Shown here piece by piece: positions 306 to 19,952 of a stretch of 64,000 nucleotides of DNA (position 1 is the first letter of the stretch; each line of letters opens with the position of its first letter). This stretch comes from Balanoglossus misakiensis (Eukaryota; Animalia; Hemichordata), in contig CM082596.2 of assembly GCA_040954595.2 (NCBI GenBank), positions 3,028,656-3,092,655 on the forward strand, read 5' to 3'. The notes beneath the pieces are model-generated. The model was not told where the DNA came from and did not search any database. It saw only the letters and a list, made by a program, of their open reading frames with translations. The position numbers and the translations under genes were made by a program.

Positions 306-9902
<9,597 letters not shown>

Positions 9903-12900
9903 AGTTCTGCAACACGCCTCGATCAAACAATGGATTCGTACAGTCTCTGATCAATGTCAACCAGCTGATGATGTAAACTACCGACCATGCGACCAGTTTT
10001 AATACACTTTTTCTCCGACAGTGCAGTATACATGTATCTAGCCGCCCCAATTACGCTAAAAGCATTACGGCGCATGCGTTTACATCTGCCAATACTGACA
10101 ACGCAGTTTTGCAATTGTATATAAAAAAACACTTTCCAACAAAATTGAAGTTACCTTAGAATATAAATATGACAGGGCAAGGTGAATATGTTTACCGCTC
10201 ACGAAAATTCGTCGATTTTTAAGCATATCACGGTTATATAGTTTGTGCCTTACAAATACAATCTGCCAACGCGATTCCTACAGTAAATGGGATATCTGCG
10301 AAGTTTTCGGAGTGGACCAAAATACTAAAACATACATGAAAACCAACAAGGTAAGATCTGGGGAGGGGGCGTGAATAGTGGCGTTTGGATATTGTCCATA
10401 TGCGCATGACAGCTCGTTTAAAAAAATCAAATCATTTTTTGACATGTCCAACAAATTTTTTATCGACCTTTATTATTGCGGTGAAATGAGGCTGGCTTAA
10501 TAGACCTCCACTGTACACGCCTACGGAGTCGATATTTCGATACAAGTTATTATTAATTACAATGCAGTCTGTGACCACTGACGACCATCTGATGTGTGTT
10601 TTCAATGCCAGGTCAGCTGCAGCATCGAGGTGAAAGATCCAGCGTGAATATCAGTCAACTAATAAATAGTTGTCGGTTTTGGTGACGTATGTGTCTTTCT
10701 AACACAAAACTTTATCATGATTTTTTGGGGGGGGGGATCATCAATGCCCTGGATTGAATTTTTGGGGATTTAGGCAATTTTTAGACTTGTTAATTTTCTT
10801 GCTAAGACCCTGGATGATGATAGGTTGGGTGAAAATTGGATACGTTTTGAGGAGGCGGTCACACGAAACCGTGCGCAAAAAGGTGACGGTATTCTGCAAA
10901 TGGGCGAATGTAATTTTAGAGAGAAAATTAAACTTAGCGAAAGAACGAAGATAGATTGCTATTCTGTGAAAAATTCTATAACTCTCGTCATCGTTTTTAG
11001 TAGGAGACTGGGTCACGTGAGTTACGCTTTCAAAACTATTCAAGAAAATGTAGAAGGAAAACCGCGCCACCGTCAGACGCTTATCTGACTTTTAGTCCAA
11101 ACCATGCGTCACCATCAAACCCGTGAATGCAGCATTTTTTCATGTCAAAATGTCGGTGTATAAACATGTTTTTTATGCGTTTTCATCAAAACCGTTACTT
11201 TAAGTTTTGGACCGAATAGACGAATTTCTACTGCCTACAGGTCTTGATCAAATCTTTACTAAAATGTGGAAAAAGTTTATACGAGGGCAAATTTATGAAC
11301 ATTGACGACAAGTTGACTTTGGCGTACGCGTTGAAAGTGGCCCACGGCGAAACCAGTACGGTGTGACCTTGCCAAAACGGTATAGTGTCAATGAACGTGT
11401 GTAAACTGTAAAATTAACAACTCGACAACGCCAGGAACAGCGCCGAGACGCAAGAAAGGCGTAGCGACAAGACAGCAGATAATCTCACGCTTCCGGCAGA
11501 AAGTCACTTAAGACCGATCCCATTCCGGTAATCTGATGATATCGATACATGATCTATGCTATGCGTACATACAATGACACTTGCAGACTTAAAGACTCGC
11601 GGTGCAATGACTAATATACTGCGGGAAGCTGCATGTGCTCGGTCGGGTTAAAAAACTACCGCAGTTTCGGTCACAGCACTAAACATCGTGCCGTCAGTAC
11701 TTCCATTGAAATTTCGCTGTTTAAAAAAAAGTAGAATTCAGTTTCCATAGTTACCAGTGTCGATAGAAAGATGTACGTAGGTGTAACTCTAACCGTGCCC
11801 TCCAGCAGAAAGACTGATATATTTGTGCGATTTCTGGTTCACCTAACACTGGCTTCCCGCAGTCAGAATTTGAAAAGACAGATTCTGAGTATCTTAAATG
11901 ATAGATTTATATTAAAAGTGACTAGTACATTTTAAATGTCACCCTTAGCGTAAAATGTGCTTCACCCACCCCAATACAGTTCCACTTTTAAATATTTAAG
12001 CAGACGTTAAAACTGAATCACGTTTCCCCGGCTCTCACTTTGCCATTATTATTTCATCCGAATACAATATGTCTATCACGTTAATAAATCGCATTTTCGA
12101 ATTTTCAAAATGGCCCATTTAATCACCAAATATCCTAATCTCTTAGCCATTGCTGGGATTACACTAGCAACGTTTATTGGAATTTATTTCGTTTTGTTAT
12201 ATTTGTCGAGTTGTTGTTTTATCATTTTAAAAAATCATGAGATATAATGCACAGAGCCATCGTAAATCGTTCGCGTATGCAGCGTACATTAAAACTAAGG
12301 CTTTGGTTTATTTCTATGCAGCAATTGTGTTTTTAGTTCAGTGAAGCTACACAAGTTCAAGCGTGGCCCGGGTCATTCAGAGTATCAGAGATACACAGAA
12401 AAAAACACCATGAATTTCAATGCCGGCGATAAATGTATACAGCCCACTTTCGGTTTAATTTCAAAACATGGAGATGGTAGGACGTGTTCCGCAGGCAAAA
12501 CCATACAAAAGCACGAGAGATGCATTAAACATGGCCCATCAAATGTTTCTCCGCACAAACAACATCAACGCAATGATTTTTACAGCAGTACTCAAGTTGA
12601 ACCCTGTCTTTCCAGAAGTCACGCGAAAACAGCCGTGGAGGTAGTAAGCCGACAAATGGAATATTTTACCGAATGTTTTTTCCGGCTTGAGCTATTAAAT
12701 TTTTTACTATATGTGGGCGATTGATAGTGTGACTGCTTTACCGACGGCTATCAATTTTATCTATTGTGTCATCACGGTCCTGATATCGGATTCCGTGGAG
12801 GTGATTTTACATGTACTTTCACCTGGGGGCGCTTTCGACTCGAGAAAAAAGGGACCCCCAGCAATAAGTGAAGTCTGCCGTTGGAAATCGGAATTCGTCG

Positions 12901-13516
12901 CATTTTAAAACGCTCGCGCCCCAAACGACTTCCTCAGTTGAATGTGTTATAGTTTATATTCACCCCTTTGAACGGTTGTCGCCACTGCCGAACACTCTAT
13001 ATGGACTGATATCGCGATCGTTATGTTGGCAAACAGGCGGATATATCTCCGTCTCTGTTTGTCATAACGACTAAGTCTGTTTACAATAGCCAAAGTCGTA
13101 ACGCGGGAGTCAAAGCAACTTTTAATCAGACCGCCGTGATCTGTGAACGAGACGAGCTTGAATGCATGCATACAGCATACGATCGGTGTGATTCGCTGTT
13201 GAATCACTTTGTGCAATGTTCTGGCGCATAACAAAGGTTTCCTGTTGGAAAACTCTCTACGCGGTGCCGGCAGTCTGCGCACGCGAATTCTATTAACAAT
13301 TATCTCACTATAAGCAAAGATTCGCCTGGAGATGATGTTGCGCGAAACCTTAAAGGAGAATGGTCGCATGGCAACGCTCGTGAGCGAATGGGGAGGGGCG
13401 GGGGGATTGGCGGGCTTCTTGTTTCAAATCATTTATGAAAGCGCTAACAGTACGCCTTACCTATAATCTAGACTGTCTGTTCTGTAATGCCATTCGGTAC
13501 TCGAACATTGTAGTGG

Positions 13517-13575
13517 TATCATCATCATCATCATCATCGTCATCGTCGTCGTCGTCGTCACCACCATCATCATCA
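13517..13575. repeat. (ATC/GTC)n trinucleotide microsatellite
   Basis: atcatcatc...gtcgtcgtc...catcatca; it accounts for the spurious poly-Asp ORF 13461-13724. Confidence 0.9.
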
Positions 13576-14726
13576 GTGCCAGCATAGATTGCCAATGTTT
13601 CTAGAAAAAGACCGAAAAGAGAAAAAAACATGTAATTTAATAAACTATTTCCAAAAGATTTTCCCAGATGTCTATTCCAGATTCTGTTGTGCCATTTCCA
13701 GTGGCTTTCATACAAGAAATCCATTCACACTTTACGCTATAAAAATTATACATTTGTTACTATTGCGGATGAGGCTTCTTAGAAATTGCGACCACAAAGT
13801 ACGACACTAACAACTTCTGCCGGCGCACCTTTCAGGTACGAACACCCCAATCCTTTTCCGCTGATTCGGGTCGAACTCTCACCCGCACTTTAATGGTCAG
13901 TAAGTTCCCCGTCACGGTCACAAGCATTCGGTCATGCGGGTATAGGGGGCGCTACTTCAAGATTGGCAAACGGGATTTGGAAGAACTGTGGGTTTGAGGA
14001 AACTATGCGCTTGGAGCGAGAAACAAATCCACTTCGAAAAACAAGGCAAGAATAAAAATGGAATTATACTTCTGCATCCTTCACCTGTCGTGAATCAAAG
14101 ACTGAAACAAATCGTTTTCATATTATCGTATATCGGGCAACACTTCCACATTTCTGCTCCACCACGGCACCGAGACTCCCGCAAGTAATAAACTGATCTA
14201 TATTTGATAAAGATATCCCAACGAACACCGTCAATCGTGACAAAGTGATACTGGTATTAAAATACTGAAAACGGCGATCGGAAGAAACTTGTTGTACAAC
14301 TGTGAAAGGTAACATATCCGACTGTTGTCGGTGAAATCTAAAGTTGTCCACTGTATCTTGTTGCATTGTTATTGCGCATTTATATGCTGTATTATATTTC
14401 CAACCGCCTTCACAGACATTTCCGTTCTATGTCCTGCTAAAAGATTGGAGACAATTTGCAGATTTTACAAAGAGGCTCAGTACAAGGAGGGGGTTCTATC
14501 CGTAAAGATCATGGTGCCAGGCTGATTCCGTTTTAATCAGTGTTAGCATATTGGTAAACAAATATGCAAAAATCAATACCTATAAACTTGACAAGCACGG
14601 TGTGATTTGAAAAGCTGGAAACTACTCCACGTAGGTCTGAACAAAAACCCCCTTCATTTTGGGGGGAAGTTGTTCCGTGTGGATACGTACGCAGTTTCAG
14701 TGACCTGACAACCTTTGACCCCGGCC

Positions 14727-15010
14727 GGGTATTCCCCCAGTTTTTCACGTTCGCAGAAGTGCACATGTCCTTGGAACGGTCGCACGTACTTGGGAAGGAA
14801 TTTATTGCCGTCTTCCAGATCGACTGCCATCATGAACGGAACACGACCCCGATGTGTGATTTAATAGGAGAGATCTTATTCCTGCAGAGTGATGTAGTAC
14901 AATAATTTAATTTCCGTCACGTGGCGCTGCAGCTGTGTTCATTCCATCTGATCGTGGGGTAATACCTACATGGTAAATACGTGTTATGGATGTGGGCGGG
15001 CGGGTTTCCC
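14727..15010 (+). promoter_or_regulatory. Proximal NF-kB-like sites and GC box upstream of the PDZ/IL-1-like ORF
   Basis: GGGTATTCCC (14727-14736) and GGGCGGGCGGGTTTCCC (ending at 15010); each kB-like site is one mismatch from GGGRNWYYCC. Confidence 0.45.
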
Positions 15011-15095
15011 TTCTCTATTTTTAGTCCATTAGTAATGATTCACCTAGGAGATATACTAGTATTAACGATACCAACCAAGGCAGACACAGTACAGA

Positions 15096-16163
15096 ATGCA
15101 TAGAGGGTACACAAGAAACGCCAACGTAACAATGCCGGAGAATATGGAGAGACCCGAAGTGCCAGTGGCTGAACAGCTAGAACCAGCAATTGACAGCGGT
15201 TATGGACCACTCAAGTGGATTAAGGGCATATTGAGACAAGTATCCCAGCACGACTCGGTGGAAAAGGAAGAGTCGCCCAGCGACGATGGTGGTGACGATG
15301 ACGGCGCGTTGGTAAGGCTACAGTTGCCCACTACGCCGGTGATTGAATTCGGAGCCACCATCACGGGGAAGAAGCACCGGGTGTTCGACGTTGTGCCGGG
15401 AAGCTACGCCGATGAACTGAAACTCAAGCCCGATGACGAACTAGCGGTGTTGAACGGACTCGACTTAACCGACCTGCCATCTCAGGAAGTTGGCCGGCTA
15501 TTTCGGCGCGCGCATGACGAAGTTCAACTTGTCATCCGACGACGAGGCGGTACCGTTCAGTGCGGGTTCCTCGCGAGTGGCCTGCGGCAAGGGCATGACG
15601 AGATCGGCGTGAAAGTGTCATGCCCGCACTTCCAAGAGAACATCATCCAGACACTCGAATGTTCCCCTACGCTGAAACCCAAGAAAATCTACACGGCGTA
15701 CGTGAAGAGCATCTCCCGTTCCAACGAGCGGAGGACTGACTGTTGTCTGAAAGCACAGAGCGGAAAGGTCGTAGCCACGCCCGTCAGAAACGGTCAGGAA
15801 CAGTGGCACAAGGTCAGACTGCACACCTATCAGAGTTTCACCGTCACCGAGGGAATCTGTTGCGTTCTGGAGATCGGGCCGAACAAGAAGACCATCGCCT
15901 GCCGCCGAGACGCGAGAACGAACGAACCGATCGTGTACCTCAGCGCTGATATGAGCGACGCCAAAAGCGTGTGTGACAAGAGGATTTTCATCAAGAAAAT
16001 CACAGACGGCCGAACGCTGTTCAAATCGGCAACACAGCCAAATGTCTACCTGTACATCGACGGTGAAAACCTCACCGCTAGACAGATTCCAGACGCTAGC
16101 GACATTGACAACCATTCCAGATTTGACGTGTGTCCAATCAAGAACAGGGAACTGCGCCGGTAA
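15096..16163 (+). CDS. Intronless leaderless protein with a PDZ domain (aa ~72-149) and a probable interleukin-1-family beta-trefoil (aa ~196-347)
   Basis: 355-aa GC-rich ORF, the longest in the window. PDZ pattern: EFGATITG..RVFDVVPGSYADELKLKPDDELAVLNG...VQLVIRR. The C-terminal KRIFIKKITDGRTLFKSATQPNVYLYID resembles the IL-1 family signature F-x-S-x6-F/Y-L preceded by RF(L/V)F. No signal peptide. AATAAA at 16782-16787. Confidence 0.8.
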   Translation: MHRGYTRNANVTMPENMERPEVPVAEQLEPAIDSGYGPLKWIKGILRQVSQHDSVEKEESPSDDGGDDDGALVRLQLPTTPVIEFGATITGKKHRVFDVVPGSYADELKLKPDDELAVLNGLDLTDLPSQEVGRLFRRAHDEVQLVIRRRGGTVQCGFLASGLRQGHDEIGVKVSCPHFQENIIQTLECSPTLKPKKIYTAYVKSISRSNERRTDCCLKAQSGKVVATPVRNGQEQWHKVRLHTYQSFTVTEGICCVLEIGPNKKTIACRRDARTNEPIVYLSADMSDAKSVCDKRIFIKKITDGRTLFKSATQPNVYLYIDGENLTARQIPDASDIDNHSRFDVCPIKNRELRR

Positions 16164-16859
16164 CTTGGGTATCGTGATGGAAAACGAACTTGTATTTTGC
16201 AAACTCAAAACCGCGGCACAGTTAGTGCTTACGTCGTCTAGAGAGGTCTTTGCGAAAAGCCTCTTTTAAGTAGTTCATGCTATGCATGTTGATCAGTTTC
16301 TTTCTGAAAATGATCAAGTTTGTCCAAATTGGGCATATTTATTTTGTGGAACGCTTTCTCAACTATTCTAAATACTAGTACGCGAACAGTAGAACTCGTA
16401 AACTGACATGTACATGTAAAACTTTTTATATTTAATATATTTTAACGTACGACAATATATTTATGATAAACTACGTACTGAAATAGCCGTTGTTGGGACA
16501 TTTCTACCCAAGAGGTTTTCTTCTGTATATTTTGGTTCACAAGATTTAAGTTTTTGTCACATTTTTGTCCTGCCTGGAGCATAACACATACATGTACTTT
16601 GTCTTTTTATACAGATATCTGTTTAGCGATTTTTTTAATTTGCTGCTATTCAAAGTATTGTGATTGTGTATTTATTCTACTGAGGTGCTTTGGTTCAAAT
16701 CATGTTTTTAGGGAGAGTGAGGTCGACAATTATGTAAAGAAGACCATGTCCTTATAGGCTTTCCTCTTGGTGATAACATTTAATAAAAGGTCTTGTCAAC
16801 GTTCAAGTACTCAGCACCTGTGCGCCTCATTTGCCTGTACATCCACCGCTCTAACACTG

Positions 16860-16901
16860 AGGACGAAATCTATCAGAAACAGGACGAAATCTATCAGAAA
16901 C
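16860..16901. repeat. 21-bp direct tandem duplication
   Basis: AGGACGAAATCTATCAGAAAC occurs twice in tandem. Confidence 0.9.
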
Positions 16902-17051
16902 AGACATCATTTTCGCAACGGACACCTCAATGGAGAAATGTACATCACAGCAGAGAAATGGACTACGCGTGCGCCCACGTGTGCCTCGAGTATGTCTCTT
17001 AACTAACAAACAACAGGCCGTTGAACTGCAATTGACGGAATGGGGAACAAA

Positions 17052-17836
17052 CGGAAAATCCCGGGGAAACACGTACGAGTAATGCCGTATCGGAAAACCC
17101 TTGTTAAGCGTCATATAAAGCGTGGGTGATGGAGGCGACCGTTAAATCGTGACGTGTTAGGTATGCCCTACGTTCGTCCATGAGCAGCCCGGCTGACGCA
17201 TTGTGACAGTACGGGGTCAGCTCTGCAAAACTCACAAAAGGTAGAGTGAAAAGCAGCCGGTTCCTATGACGTGGGCGTACTTTCTCTGAACGTCACATGA
17301 GCATCACAAGCAGGCTTGTATCAGGTTATGGGGAATTCCCCACTTTCACTTGTCACAAGCTGCGATGATGGTGTTGACTGTTGTTTAGAATGTTTGGTAC
17401 ATAACAAAATCTCGTTCATAAAAGAAGAGTTTCGTCCTGTAACCTTGAGGATTCAAACTAAAGTCTGGGAGTGGGTCGTGTGGTATTTTCACTCGGCCAA
17501 CGGGGCACTTGAAACATCGAACACTCAGGATACGCCCTCAACAGTTCAACAAAGCAGTGTGTTGCGGCATGGCTTTGCCCGGGGGTGCTGCGCAGCGTCG
17601 CCGGCCTGCCAAACAAGCTTCCCCACAGCCCGAGCAAGTTGGTTGGAACCATAATCCCTGCATTGCAATTTTAATAACTTATTATACGTTTCTTCAAGCA
17701 CTTGAATGATATAATTAACTGAATAAGTTTGTGGCCAAGCTGCACAGTCATTGCTTGGTAATCAAAGATTGTACGACAGGGTACGATTCGTGATACTGAT
17801 AGTTAAACAAACATTATTCGACACTGAGGAAATTCC
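17052..17836. promoter_or_regulatory. Cluster of NF-kB motifs plus an IRF-like motif downstream of the PDZ/IL-1-like gene
   Basis: GGAAAATCCC at 17053-17062 (perfect kB on the minus strand), GGAAAACCC at 17092-17100, palindromic GGGGAATTCCCC at 17330-17341 followed directly by ACTTTCACTT (AAGTGAAAGT on the minus strand), and GGAAATTCC at 17828-17836. Confidence 0.55.
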
Positions 17837-19952
17837 TTTGGCTGACTTCGTGCAAAACTTCAGACGTTGACGCTGGGGTGGAATCTATGGTGTCACAACC
17901 TCTTTTCAAGTTTTTATAAACCACAATGCGCACTCTCCGGGCGATGCTTCTGTCGTTTACGTGTGTCGAAGTACTTGTGTATTGATTCATTGACGTGACT
18001 CTTCAGCGCACATGTAGTGTTTACAACGGGGCGTGTTTCAAATTGTTGTGTTGATTGGTGACGTGTGTACCGCGTTGTAATTTGCCCGGATTGTGTTTAG
18101 GGTGATTTGTATACAGTCGCCATAGTGACCCCGGCCGTGTGTTTTCATATGCTAATGAGCCCGCATAAGTAATCAATTCGAGATTGTTTCCGTCGGGTTA
18201 ACGTCTCCTACAGAGCCCGGGCCTGTCGTGATATAGTCCTTTCATAAATCGAACGGGATTGCCCTCTTGGTAGGTAAGTGAACGGGTTTGAAACTTGCGG
18301 TCTAGTCTGTGAAACTTTCAGCATAATTTGGCTTCAGTTTGACAAGCTAGTGCAAGGACGACCAAGTTTGCTGTGATATGTCCACAGCGCCAGAATGGTC
18401 CACTGTGTCCGACCATAGTACTCCCAGCTGTATAGTCCACGGAGGATTACAGTGGACACAGGGTGACTGTGCAAGTTTGTGTGGGCTTGATAATTGGATT
18501 GCGATTCAGAATGACACCTGGTAGGGGGGAACAAGGTCGAGCCCGGATATTAGTATTTTAAAAGTTTTGCAGTGGATTCTACATAAACTTCGGGTTTTTG
18601 GGATACTCTATGTGAAAATTGGCCAGTAAAACAGGGCTTCGTGGTTCAGTCTATTTACATTGCAACGGCAGACTTGACAGTCGACAGAGGACGTGTTGAG
18701 GTGAACGTACGTACCAGGTTGGAAGCCACCGTCAAGTTTAATAAATTTTTCCACGACGAAAGACAGTTGCATGCCGGGAGTATTCTCAGTCACACGGCCG
18801 GGCAGTCGACAGACGATACCTCACTGCCATGTTTCGGTGTCAGTGCACATTCCTTCAGTTTCCAGTAATCCCAGTGAATATCTTTACTCGTCTCCACAAT
18901 GACATGGCACAATCAGAGCCCCTCTTGTTGGCAAAATGCTTCACAACAGGTCTAATCATGTGTTTCTTAATTTATCACCTAAAACATCCTCGAGATAGCC
19001 AATAACCCTGGATCTAAAACTCGTGCGCCAAGTCAAGAGGGAGGTGCACCACATATTGTCGAGTGCGTTCTAATTTTATCACATTGATTAATCAATTAAG
19101 AGAGTGGTCATTAACTTGTGGTCTCAAACTGCCCCTTTGGGACCAAGGAAGTTGTGTGGCTTCATCGTGTTCGAGCGCAGTCCGCTGAAGGCCGCACATC
19201 GCCACGGCTAACTATATTTACCCTATCGTACATATCTTAAAACAGCAGACTACATTGAGCGAATGTTGTCACTGTACCGAGGAAGCAGATATTTTTTTGT
19301 GTGTCATCATATGCTACACAGTATGGGGACAGGCATGACAATTGCCTGTGTTCACACACAAGTCTTGAGTTGTTCCAAGGCTGGGCACACTGGGCACCCG
19401 GCCTTGTACTCAACATCAAGCGTTGTGACGTGACCGATAGCAGGATTCCCAGTTCGAAACACTTTCACCGACTTATTGCTATTAGCTGAAAAGATTAAAA
19501 GAAATTAACATAAAAAACAGCGTTGCTTATGTAACGCGAGGGACTGTCGGTTTCACTCATCAAAAGTTGTTTTAGTTCTAAAGCAGAGAAATGCAGCTGT
19601 ATGTTGCCATGTTCGACAATTTTGGGAAGGGGTTTGGTTGGGGCGGATTCAGATTTGTCACTTATCCCGTAAATATCAAAAGATATCTTAAGACTTATTC
19701 GATGAGTGGTTATGGCGGTCTAAACTTTCCCTAACGAAGACCACAGTCCCTCAAGAAAGACGGACACTTGATATCAACGTTTGGGGACTAAACTTTTGAA
19801 TGAATAGAGACGCGTCACGACAAAAAAAAAGTCAGTGAGCGTCAAAAGCAGGAAATGAAAAAGTAGAACTCGGAAACAATAAATTACGTACGCGCTCAAA
19901 CAATATTGAAGTATTTTGCTATAAAATGAATGCAGGCAGCAAAAAATAAGAG

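What the first reader, a model, noticed from the sequence alone, without database searches (positions are those of the whole stretch)
15096..16163. Invertebrate PDZ + interleukin-1-like beta-trefoil gene: candidate ancient leaderless cytokine
Seen: a single-exon 355-aa ORF with no signal peptide, an acidic N-terminus, a clear PDZ pattern (nt ~15309-15542) and a ~150-aa beta-rich C-terminal domain. Its end, CDKRIFIKKITDGRTLFKSATQPNVYLYIDG...SRFDV, parallels the IL-1 family C-terminal signature (IL-1beta EKRFVFNK...FESAQFPNWYIST...TDF). Established: IL-1 cytokines are leaderless beta-trefoils released after pro-domain cleavage and were long treated as vertebrate-specific. From memory, PDZ-bearing IL-1 relatives have been reported in teleosts and more recently in invertebrates, so the family may already be described even if this locus is unannotated. 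Inference: this is an inflammation-type ligand for an invertebrate TIR-domain receptor, with the PDZ acting as a pro-domain or localisation module.
Basis: partly seen in the sequence, partly recalled or inferred. Interest (0 to 1): 0.9.

Follow-up and report, generated by a model that had tools for sequence, protein, structure and literature searches.

The report
Intronless invertebrate interleukin-1-like gene
This is an intact invertebrate gene for a protein with a PDZ domain and a likely interleukin-1-type tail; it probably belongs to a recently published family of ancient immune signals, and it stands out because its coding sequence has none of the introns reported for that family, likely because it arose as a copy of a spliced RNA.

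Summary
The ORF is real: 355 codons at 15096-16163, no stop, no intron. A second haplotype keeps the frame and shows purifying selection (11 silent and 5 replacement changes among the 16 of 26 classified). The PDZ passes Pfam's cut-off. The IL-1 tail is likely but not proven. Pfam IL1 is its only match, below cut-off. Language-model and Foldseek rankings put IL-1/IL-18/IL-33 first, but both AlphaFold models were poor. The only full-length relative found is an uncharacterised acorn-worm protein (Glandiceps talaboti, 35% identical). PDZ plus IL-1 trefoil without a signal peptide is the published IL-1anc family (PMC13736523), so the headline idea is already known. What differs: the paper reports a trefoil split over 3-5 exons in all species compared; here the coding sequence is one exon and none of the family's usual neighbour genes was found in the window. 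That suggests an old, functional retrocopy. Agonist versus antagonist, cleavage, receptor and expression are untested. Interest is modest.

The parts
15096..16163 (+). Intronless coding sequence, 355 aa (the start could be M1, M13 or M17)
   Evidence: collinear with XP_077988165.1 over aa 72-345 with no insertion that could be a retained intron; GC3 0.65; second haplotype without gaps
15096..15305 (+). Acidic, likely disordered N-terminal segment (aa 1-70) with a predicted helix at aa 39-50 and several Asp residues that could be protease sites
   Evidence: 15 D/E vs 7 K/R; helix from a low-confidence model; largely absent in the Glandiceps relative
15309..15545 (+). PDZ domain (aa about 72-150); binding loop reads E-F-G-A, and the helix position that is His in class I PDZ domains is Ser
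   Evidence: Pfam PF00595 23.6 bits, cut-off 23.2; PDB PDZ hits E 0.003 and 0.0004; loop and His reading by eye against recalled PDZ consensus
15546..15680 (+). Linker (aa about 151-195); His-Asp at aa 167-168 aligns with His-Asp in the relative, a weak candidate cleavage site
   Evidence: P1' is Glu here, which caspases disfavour (own knowledge)
15681..16133 (+). Probable IL-1-type beta-trefoil (aa about 196-346)
   Evidence: Pfam IL1 E 0.038-0.044 on the domain alone, only family hit, below cut-off; Atlas features 0.89; Foldseek ranking; 41% identity to the relative
16020..16028 (+). FKS, at the position of the family's (F/L)ES motif in strand 9 (FQS in the relative)
   Evidence: motif defined in PMC13736523
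13738..13745 (+). Predicted TATA box
   Evidence: only TATA(A/T)A(A/T) match in 12501-15100; motif only
13900..15024 (+). Predicted 5'-UTR intron (GTAAGT donor; pyrimidine-rich TAG acceptor)
   Evidence: motif scan; no RNA evidence
16164..16787 (+). Predicted 3' UTR with six ATTTA pentamers and AATAAA at 16782
   Evidence: 6 observed vs 2.3 in dinucleotide shuffles, p 0.024 uncorrected
17000..18300 (.). Candidate downstream enhancer: NF-kB-type sites at 17053 and 17330 (palindromic) and nine TGACG half-sites
   Evidence: shuffle p 0.008 and 0.002, region chosen after seeing the data; no gene family above cut-off found in 10-27 kb apart from this gene

Best explanation
This is an intact, intronless gene under purifying selection for a PDZ-domain protein with no hydrophobic leader, whose C-terminal domain likely folds as an IL-1-type beta-trefoil; it likely arose as an old retrocopy of a spliced IL-1anc gene and would act as an infection-induced signal for an immunoglobulin-TIR receptor. 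Shown: the ORF, the missing coding introns, the PDZ match, selection on the frame, one distant relative. Inferred from profile and language-model rankings: the trefoil. Inferred from motifs: induction through NF-kB/CRE sites and a short-lived AU-rich mRNA. Inferred by analogy to IL-1anc and IL-1alpha/beta: a cytosolic precursor that leaves through gasdermin pores or cell lysis, with or without protease trimming, and triggers TIR-NF-kB signalling in neighbouring cells.
For: Selection: 11 silent and 5 replacement changes, omega 0.14-0.20, p 1.4e-4 to 1.8e-3 for transition bias 1-6; the same changes read 2 silent to 10 replacement in the antisense ORF. Relative: XP_077988165.1, E 3e-42, 35% identical over both domains. 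Trefoil type: Pfam IL1 is the only hit for aa 181-355; Atlas features give IL-18/IL-1/IL-33 clusters at 0.85-0.89, and the ten best hits with a family agree. The relative scores 0.95 to an echinoderm-dominated 309-aa PDZ cluster and 0.93 to two IL1 clusters of 356-358 aa. Foldseek lists IL-1-family chains in 28 of 46 rows and 18 of 45 rows, with no FGF, fascin or ricin chain in either list. By eye, the tail lines up with crinoid AjapIL-1.3 and amphioxus BfloIL-1 in the paper's Table S2. Retro-origin: the paper reports 3-5 trefoil exons and conserved PDZ introns, and all are absent here. Neighbours are a GPCR, Beclin-1, guanylate kinase, an M3 peptidase and a BEACH protein, not the GCC2/ESD/EIF2A/TRAF3/IL-1R set. 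IL-1anc genes are immune-induced in lamprey, sea urchin and sea anemone.
Confidence: 0.55

Rival explanations
1. Same gene and fold, but the protein is a receptor antagonist or damper, like teleost nIL-1F and mammalian IL-1Ra: it binds the receptor and blocks a spliced IL-1anc paralogue.
For: PMC7144542 passages report that nIL-1F, the fish PDZ-IL-1, binds the type 1 receptor and attenuates IL-1beta activity. Antagonists are immune-induced too, so the motifs do not discriminate. A divergent extra copy is free to specialise.
Against: Nothing in the sequence marks an antagonist; fish nIL-1F works beside a separate IL-1beta that has not been reported in invertebrates (text; Fig. 2 not seen).
Confidence: 0.2
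2. Same gene and fold, but it works inside the cell as a PDZ-anchored scaffold or nuclear factor, or in a non-immune signalling role, and is not a released cytokine.
For: No leader. In the paper only the signal-peptide member was secreted, and no PDZ-bearing member was reported as cleaved by the caspases tested. No Ig or TIR exon was found among the ORFs scanned in the window.
Against: Leaderless release is the norm for IL-1 cytokines; other family members are immune-induced in phagocytes; kB/ARE-like motifs flank this gene.
Confidence: 0.13
3. The C-terminal domain is not an IL-1-type trefoil but another beta-rich fold or another trefoil family.
For: No confident model and no significant structural hit; Pfam IL1 below cut-off; a two-sequence profile found no IL-1 chain in the PDB and gave only summed weak WD40-repeat matches.
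Against: Three partly independent rankings (Pfam, Atlas features, Foldseek) all put the IL-1 clan first and none lists FGF, fascin or ricin at a comparable rank; the one ricin-type Atlas cluster was rank 29 at 0.81. The domain order matches a known family.
Confidence: 0.08
4. A processed pseudogene, or a copy captured by a virus or transposon, with no host function.
For: No coding introns; no RNA data in hand.
Against: Intact frame in both haplotypes, omega 0.14-0.20; GC3 within the range of neighbouring exons, 0.37-0.89; no mobile-element or viral family above cut-off among 117 ORFs scanned; no repeat of the flanks elsewhere in the window.
Confidence: 0.04

Closest known systems
IL-1anc family (Fontenla-Iglesias et al., Nat Ecol Evol 2026, PMC13736523; preprint PMC12338702)
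   Same: N-terminal unstructured segment, PDZ, probable C-terminal IL-1 trefoil, no signal peptide, under 500 aa, variant of the strand-9 motif. By eye the nearest listed members are crinoid AjapIL-1.3 (GYIKSI / DPVLYL / DDRLFFK against AYVKSI / EPIVYL / DKRIFIK here) and amphioxus BfloIL-1.
   Different: No coding introns, against 3-5 trefoil exons 'in all species' compared and eight exons described for ambulacrarians. None of the reported neighbour genes found. FKS instead of (F/L)ES. Neither this protein nor Glandiceps appears in the supplements searched (cells cut at 400 characters; figures not seen).
Glandiceps talaboti LOC144442661 (XP_077988165.1, 'uncharacterized protein', acorn worm)
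   Same: 35% identity over aa 72-345, both domains collinear, E 3e-42 among 1.84 billion representatives; the only full-length relative found.
   Different: 334 aa, with about 13 residues before the PDZ instead of 71 and a linker about 20 residues longer. Its exon structure and neighbours could not be seen.
Teleost nIL-1F (lumpfish, PMC7144542)
   Same: PDZ + IL-1 domain, 352 aa, PAMP-induced.
   Different: Seven coding exons; reported as an IL-1beta antagonist; not detected by sequence search from this protein.
Mammalian IL-1beta / IL-18 / IL-33
   Same: Leaderless; probable trefoil; top of the Pfam, Atlas and Foldseek rankings.
   Different: No PDZ; 12-21% identity in Foldseek alignments of a poor model; multi-exon genes.

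Membership tests
IL-1anc | N-terminal PDZ domain | tested here: met
   Pfam PF00595 23.6 bits, cut-off 23.2; PDB PDZ hits
IL-1anc | C-terminal 12-strand IL-1 beta-trefoil confirmed by a structure model | tested here: inconclusive
IL-1anc | No signal peptide | tested here: met
   Hydropathy scan only: best 11-residue mean near the N-terminus 0.6; SignalP not available
IL-1anc | (F/L)ES-like motif in strand 9 ('often conserved', variants accepted) | tested here: met
   FKS at aa 309-311, FQS in the relative; FQS and FRS occur in listed cnidarian members. The acidic residue is not kept.
IL-1anc | Supporting feature, not part of the paper's definition: trefoil on 3-5 exons with conserved intron phases, plus PDZ introns | tested here: not met
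   Single coding exon, collinear with the relative versus PMC13736523. This is the variant feature.
IL-1anc | Supporting feature: linkage to GCC2, ESD, EIF2A, TRAF3 or an IL-1R-like gene | tested here: inconclusive
   None found among ORFs scanned in the 64 kb; short exons were not scanned, only 15 kb lies upstream, and the paper notes IL-1 genes outside these loci; the cephalochordate synteny figure was not visible
IL-1anc | Induction on immune challenge | not testable with these tools
   No RNA run was available to lay; motifs only
IL-1 cytokines (function) | Proteolytic release and signalling through an Ig-TIR receptor | not testable with these tools
   No genome held, no receptor sequence, no assay
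Retrogene | All coding introns of the parent absent | tested here: met
   against the exon structure in PMC13736523
Retrogene | Poly(A) remnant or target-site duplication; a spliced parent elsewhere in the genome | tested here: inconclusive
   No A-run of 7 or more in 14001-19000 and no flanking direct repeat, as expected for an old copy; no parent in the window; whole genome not held

The most novel reading that the evidence does not exclude
This gene and the Glandiceps protein mark an unlisted, anciently retroposed, intron-free branch of the IL-1 family in invertebrate deuterostomes that recruited its own NF-kB/CRE control region for fast induction, much as amniote type I interferons lost their introns (interferon parallel recalled, not checked). 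If the host is an amphioxus, it would also break the published statement that cephalochordates uniformly have one IL-1anc.
Probability: 0.3. Interest if true: 0.5.

Novelty: new variant of a known kind. Interest (0 to 1): 0.33.

Why it matters
The large claim, that IL-1 cytokines predate vertebrates, is already published, so this gene does not change that picture. It matters in two smaller ways. It is an exception to the conserved exon structure that the 2026 paper uses as evidence of common ancestry, which suggests that IL-1anc repertoires also grow by retroposition and that catalogues based on synteny or exon structure will miss copies. And a compact, single-exon member can be cloned straight from genomic DNA to test the family's open question: agonist, antagonist or intracellular factor.

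Tried and rejected
Word-indexed homologue searches: none for the protein alone; only the Glandiceps protein with the two-sequence alignment; both limited to about 183-622 aa. Four other phmmer hits match the PDZ only and were set aside (named). No whole genome is held, so paralogues and receptors could not be sought. No RNA holder listed. A search with a BEACH-gene exon to place the host lineage found nothing, so the lineage is not determined. No relative in metagenome or viral contigs. Two AlphaFold runs failed to converge; the geometric search on the second gave only generic beta-sheet matches. WD40 hits are summed repeats of 2-5 bits each and were rejected. The antisense ORF 15618-16265 has no Pfam match and its changes are mostly replacements: a shadow of the real gene. 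Upstream kB-like sites are not enriched (3 vs 1.9 expected, p 0.3). No second IL-1-like copy in the window. Ten haplotype differences near aa 40-81 remain unclassified because their positions were not listed. No complex prediction was sent, as no receptor sequence was in hand.

Full report
Observation. The + strand ORF at 15096-16163 encodes 355 aa without interruption. Thirty base shuffles of the window gave a longest ATG ORF of 96-198 aa. The ORF is 54% GC with GC3 0.65, against 43% and 39% GC in the flanking kilobases. There is no hydrophobic leader or membrane segment by hydropathy, and aa 1-70 are acidic. An in-frame stop lies just upstream, since the stop-to-stop frame begins at 15066. 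The start codon is not settled: an out-of-frame 22-codon ORF ends over M1, M17 has the better context, and the one relative has a much shorter N-terminus.

It is a gene under selection. Three coded runs from one sample, possibly the window's own source, hold the stretch. A contig of run X2 covering 15339-16340 differs from the window at 18 places with no gaps; 16 lie in the ORF. Eleven are silent and five change a residue; none makes a stop. Omega is 0.14-0.20 and p is 1.4e-4 to 1.8e-3 for transition bias from 1 to 6; read in the overlapping antisense ORF the changes are 2 silent to 10 replacement. I read this contig as the second haplotype. Ten more differences sit in a gap-free 184-base bubble at 15185-15368 and were not listed, so 16 of 26 coding differences were classified.

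Relatives. phmmer over 1.84 billion representatives returned five proteins at E 0.001 or better; one covers both domains (E 3.2e-42). It is XP_077988165.1, an uncharacterised protein of the acorn worm Glandiceps talaboti, 35% identical over aa 72-345. A profile of the two found nothing else. The host is therefore plausibly an invertebrate deuterostome, most simply a hemichordate, but I could not place it (one search failed) and amphioxus is not excluded.

What is known. PMC13736523 (Nat Ecol Evol 2026) defines IL-1anc as PDZ + IL-1 trefoil without a signal peptide, found across eumetazoans. I read the abstract, introduction, results, the first part of the discussion, the bioinformatics methods, the limitations and the first part of the extended-data legends. 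I also read parts 1-5 of 7 of the table file, with cells cut at 400 characters, and parts 4 and 9 of 10 of the review file. No figure was visible, including the exon, synteny and reviewer-tree figures, and the 80-plus extra ambulacrarian genes mentioned to reviewers are not listed in text; this subfamily could be among them. The paper reports immune induction in three species, no role of the PDZ in localisation, and caspase cleavage of one PDZ-less member only. It gives no direct proof of pro-inflammatory action. Passages of PMC7144542 describe fish nIL-1F as PDZ + IL-1, seven coding exons, and a reported antagonist. Of the preprint PMC12338702 I saw passages only. By eye, the tail resembles crinoid AjapIL-1.3 and amphioxus BfloIL-1 more than the three listed hemichordate proteins; this comparison was not scored.

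What differs. [quoted passage not shown] Here both domains lie in one exon, and the alignment to the relative has no insertion that could be a retained intron. Every neighbour is spliced: a rhodopsin-type GPCR (2-10 kb, minus), Beclin-1 (28-30 kb, minus), guanylate kinase (about 35 kb), an M3 peptidase (38-41 kb) and a BEACH/WD40 protein (45-62 kb, minus). None is among the neighbours reported for IL-1anc. Loss of all coding introns at an apparently different locus fits retroposition best (about 0.7); no poly(A) or target-site duplication survives, so it would be old. Stepwise intron loss in place cannot be excluded without the relative's gene model. I found no report of an intronless IL-1anc: paper searches (listings only, apart from the three papers above), and term searches of the paper and its supplements.

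Regulation, all predicted. A TATA box at 13738, a donor at 13900 and an acceptor at 15024 suggest a non-coding first exon. Six ATTTA pentamers precede AATAAA at 16782 (p 0.024). Two of the four strict NF-kB-type loci in the window lie at 17053 and 17330, within a stretch holding nine TGACG half-sites (2.9 expected). These tests are post hoc and uncorrected, and upstream kB-like sites are not enriched. No other gene family above cut-off was found between 10 and 27 kb, so this gene is the nearest candidate target, with the GPCR promoter as the alternative.

Mechanism. Most likely (0.55) the gene is induced on infection and makes a cytosolic precursor that leaves through gasdermin pores or lysis, and its trefoil activates an Ig-TIR receptor. 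Every step after 'intact gene with a PDZ' is inferred from the family. Rivals are an antagonist like fish nIL-1F (0.2), an intracellular or non-immune role (0.13), a different fold (0.08) and a dead copy (0.04). No convincing caspase site separates PDZ from trefoil: His-Asp at aa 167-168 is shared with the relative but is followed by Glu.

Earlier notes of this scan describe six other unlisted IL-1anc-like genes, four of them stated to be spliced. They are unchecked AI notes and give no support here, but they suggest that unlisted members are common, which lowers the interest of one more.

Verdict. This is a probable IL-1anc whose only new trait is an intron-free coding sequence. Interest 0.33.

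Noticed in passing
window 15185-15368: The two haplotypes differ at 10 places in this 184-base bubble without gaps, against 18 in 1002 bases over the rest of the gene and none in 15096-15214. The acidic stretch before the PDZ may be hypervariable; the changes were not listed.
   Followed up: no
window 1-64000: CpG observed/expected is about 0.7-1.3 over 1-24 kb (GPCR and this gene) and mostly 0.2-0.7 over the Beclin-1, guanylate kinase, M3 peptidase and BEACH genes, with a peak of 1.16 at 31-32 kb that may be a shared promoter. This fits mosaic gene-body methylation of housekeeping genes.
   Followed up: partly
window 2284-9950 (-): Spliced rhodopsin-type, neuropeptide-receptor-like GPCR transcribed away from the IL-1-like gene; GC3 0.84-0.89.
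   Followed up: no
window 27927-62000: Beclin-1 (27.9-30.3 kb, -), guanylate kinase (about 35 kb, +), M3 oligopeptidase (38-41 kb, +) and a neurobeachin-like BEACH/WD40 gene (45-62 kb, -), all multi-exon.
   Followed up: partly
window 15035-15103 (+): A 22-codon upstream ORF ends across the first ATG of the gene, out of frame, and could shift initiation to M13 or M17.
   Followed up: no
window 16860-16901: Perfect 21-nt tandem duplication just past the predicted polyadenylation signal.
   Followed up: no
PMC13736523 Table S2, compared with window 15186-15245: By eye, many listed IL-1anc proteins either start Met-Gly with nearby Cys (amphioxus, sea stars) or carry an Asp-x-x-Asp-Gly motif followed by a hydrophobic stretch upstream of the PDZ, the motif cleaved in SpurIL-1.3. 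Cleavage there would expose a Gly that might be lipidated and would leave the PDZ on the trefoil. 'Myristoyl' does not occur in the paper's main text. This protein has only Asp33-Ser-Gly before a predicted helix. Not counted or tested.
   Followed up: no
PMC13736523 Table S2, row LreiIL-1.2: The sequence given for this lamprey entry is hydrophobic throughout and looks like a four-pass membrane protein (TM4SF-like, recalled), not a PDZ-IL-1; possibly a wrong accession in the table.
   Followed up: no
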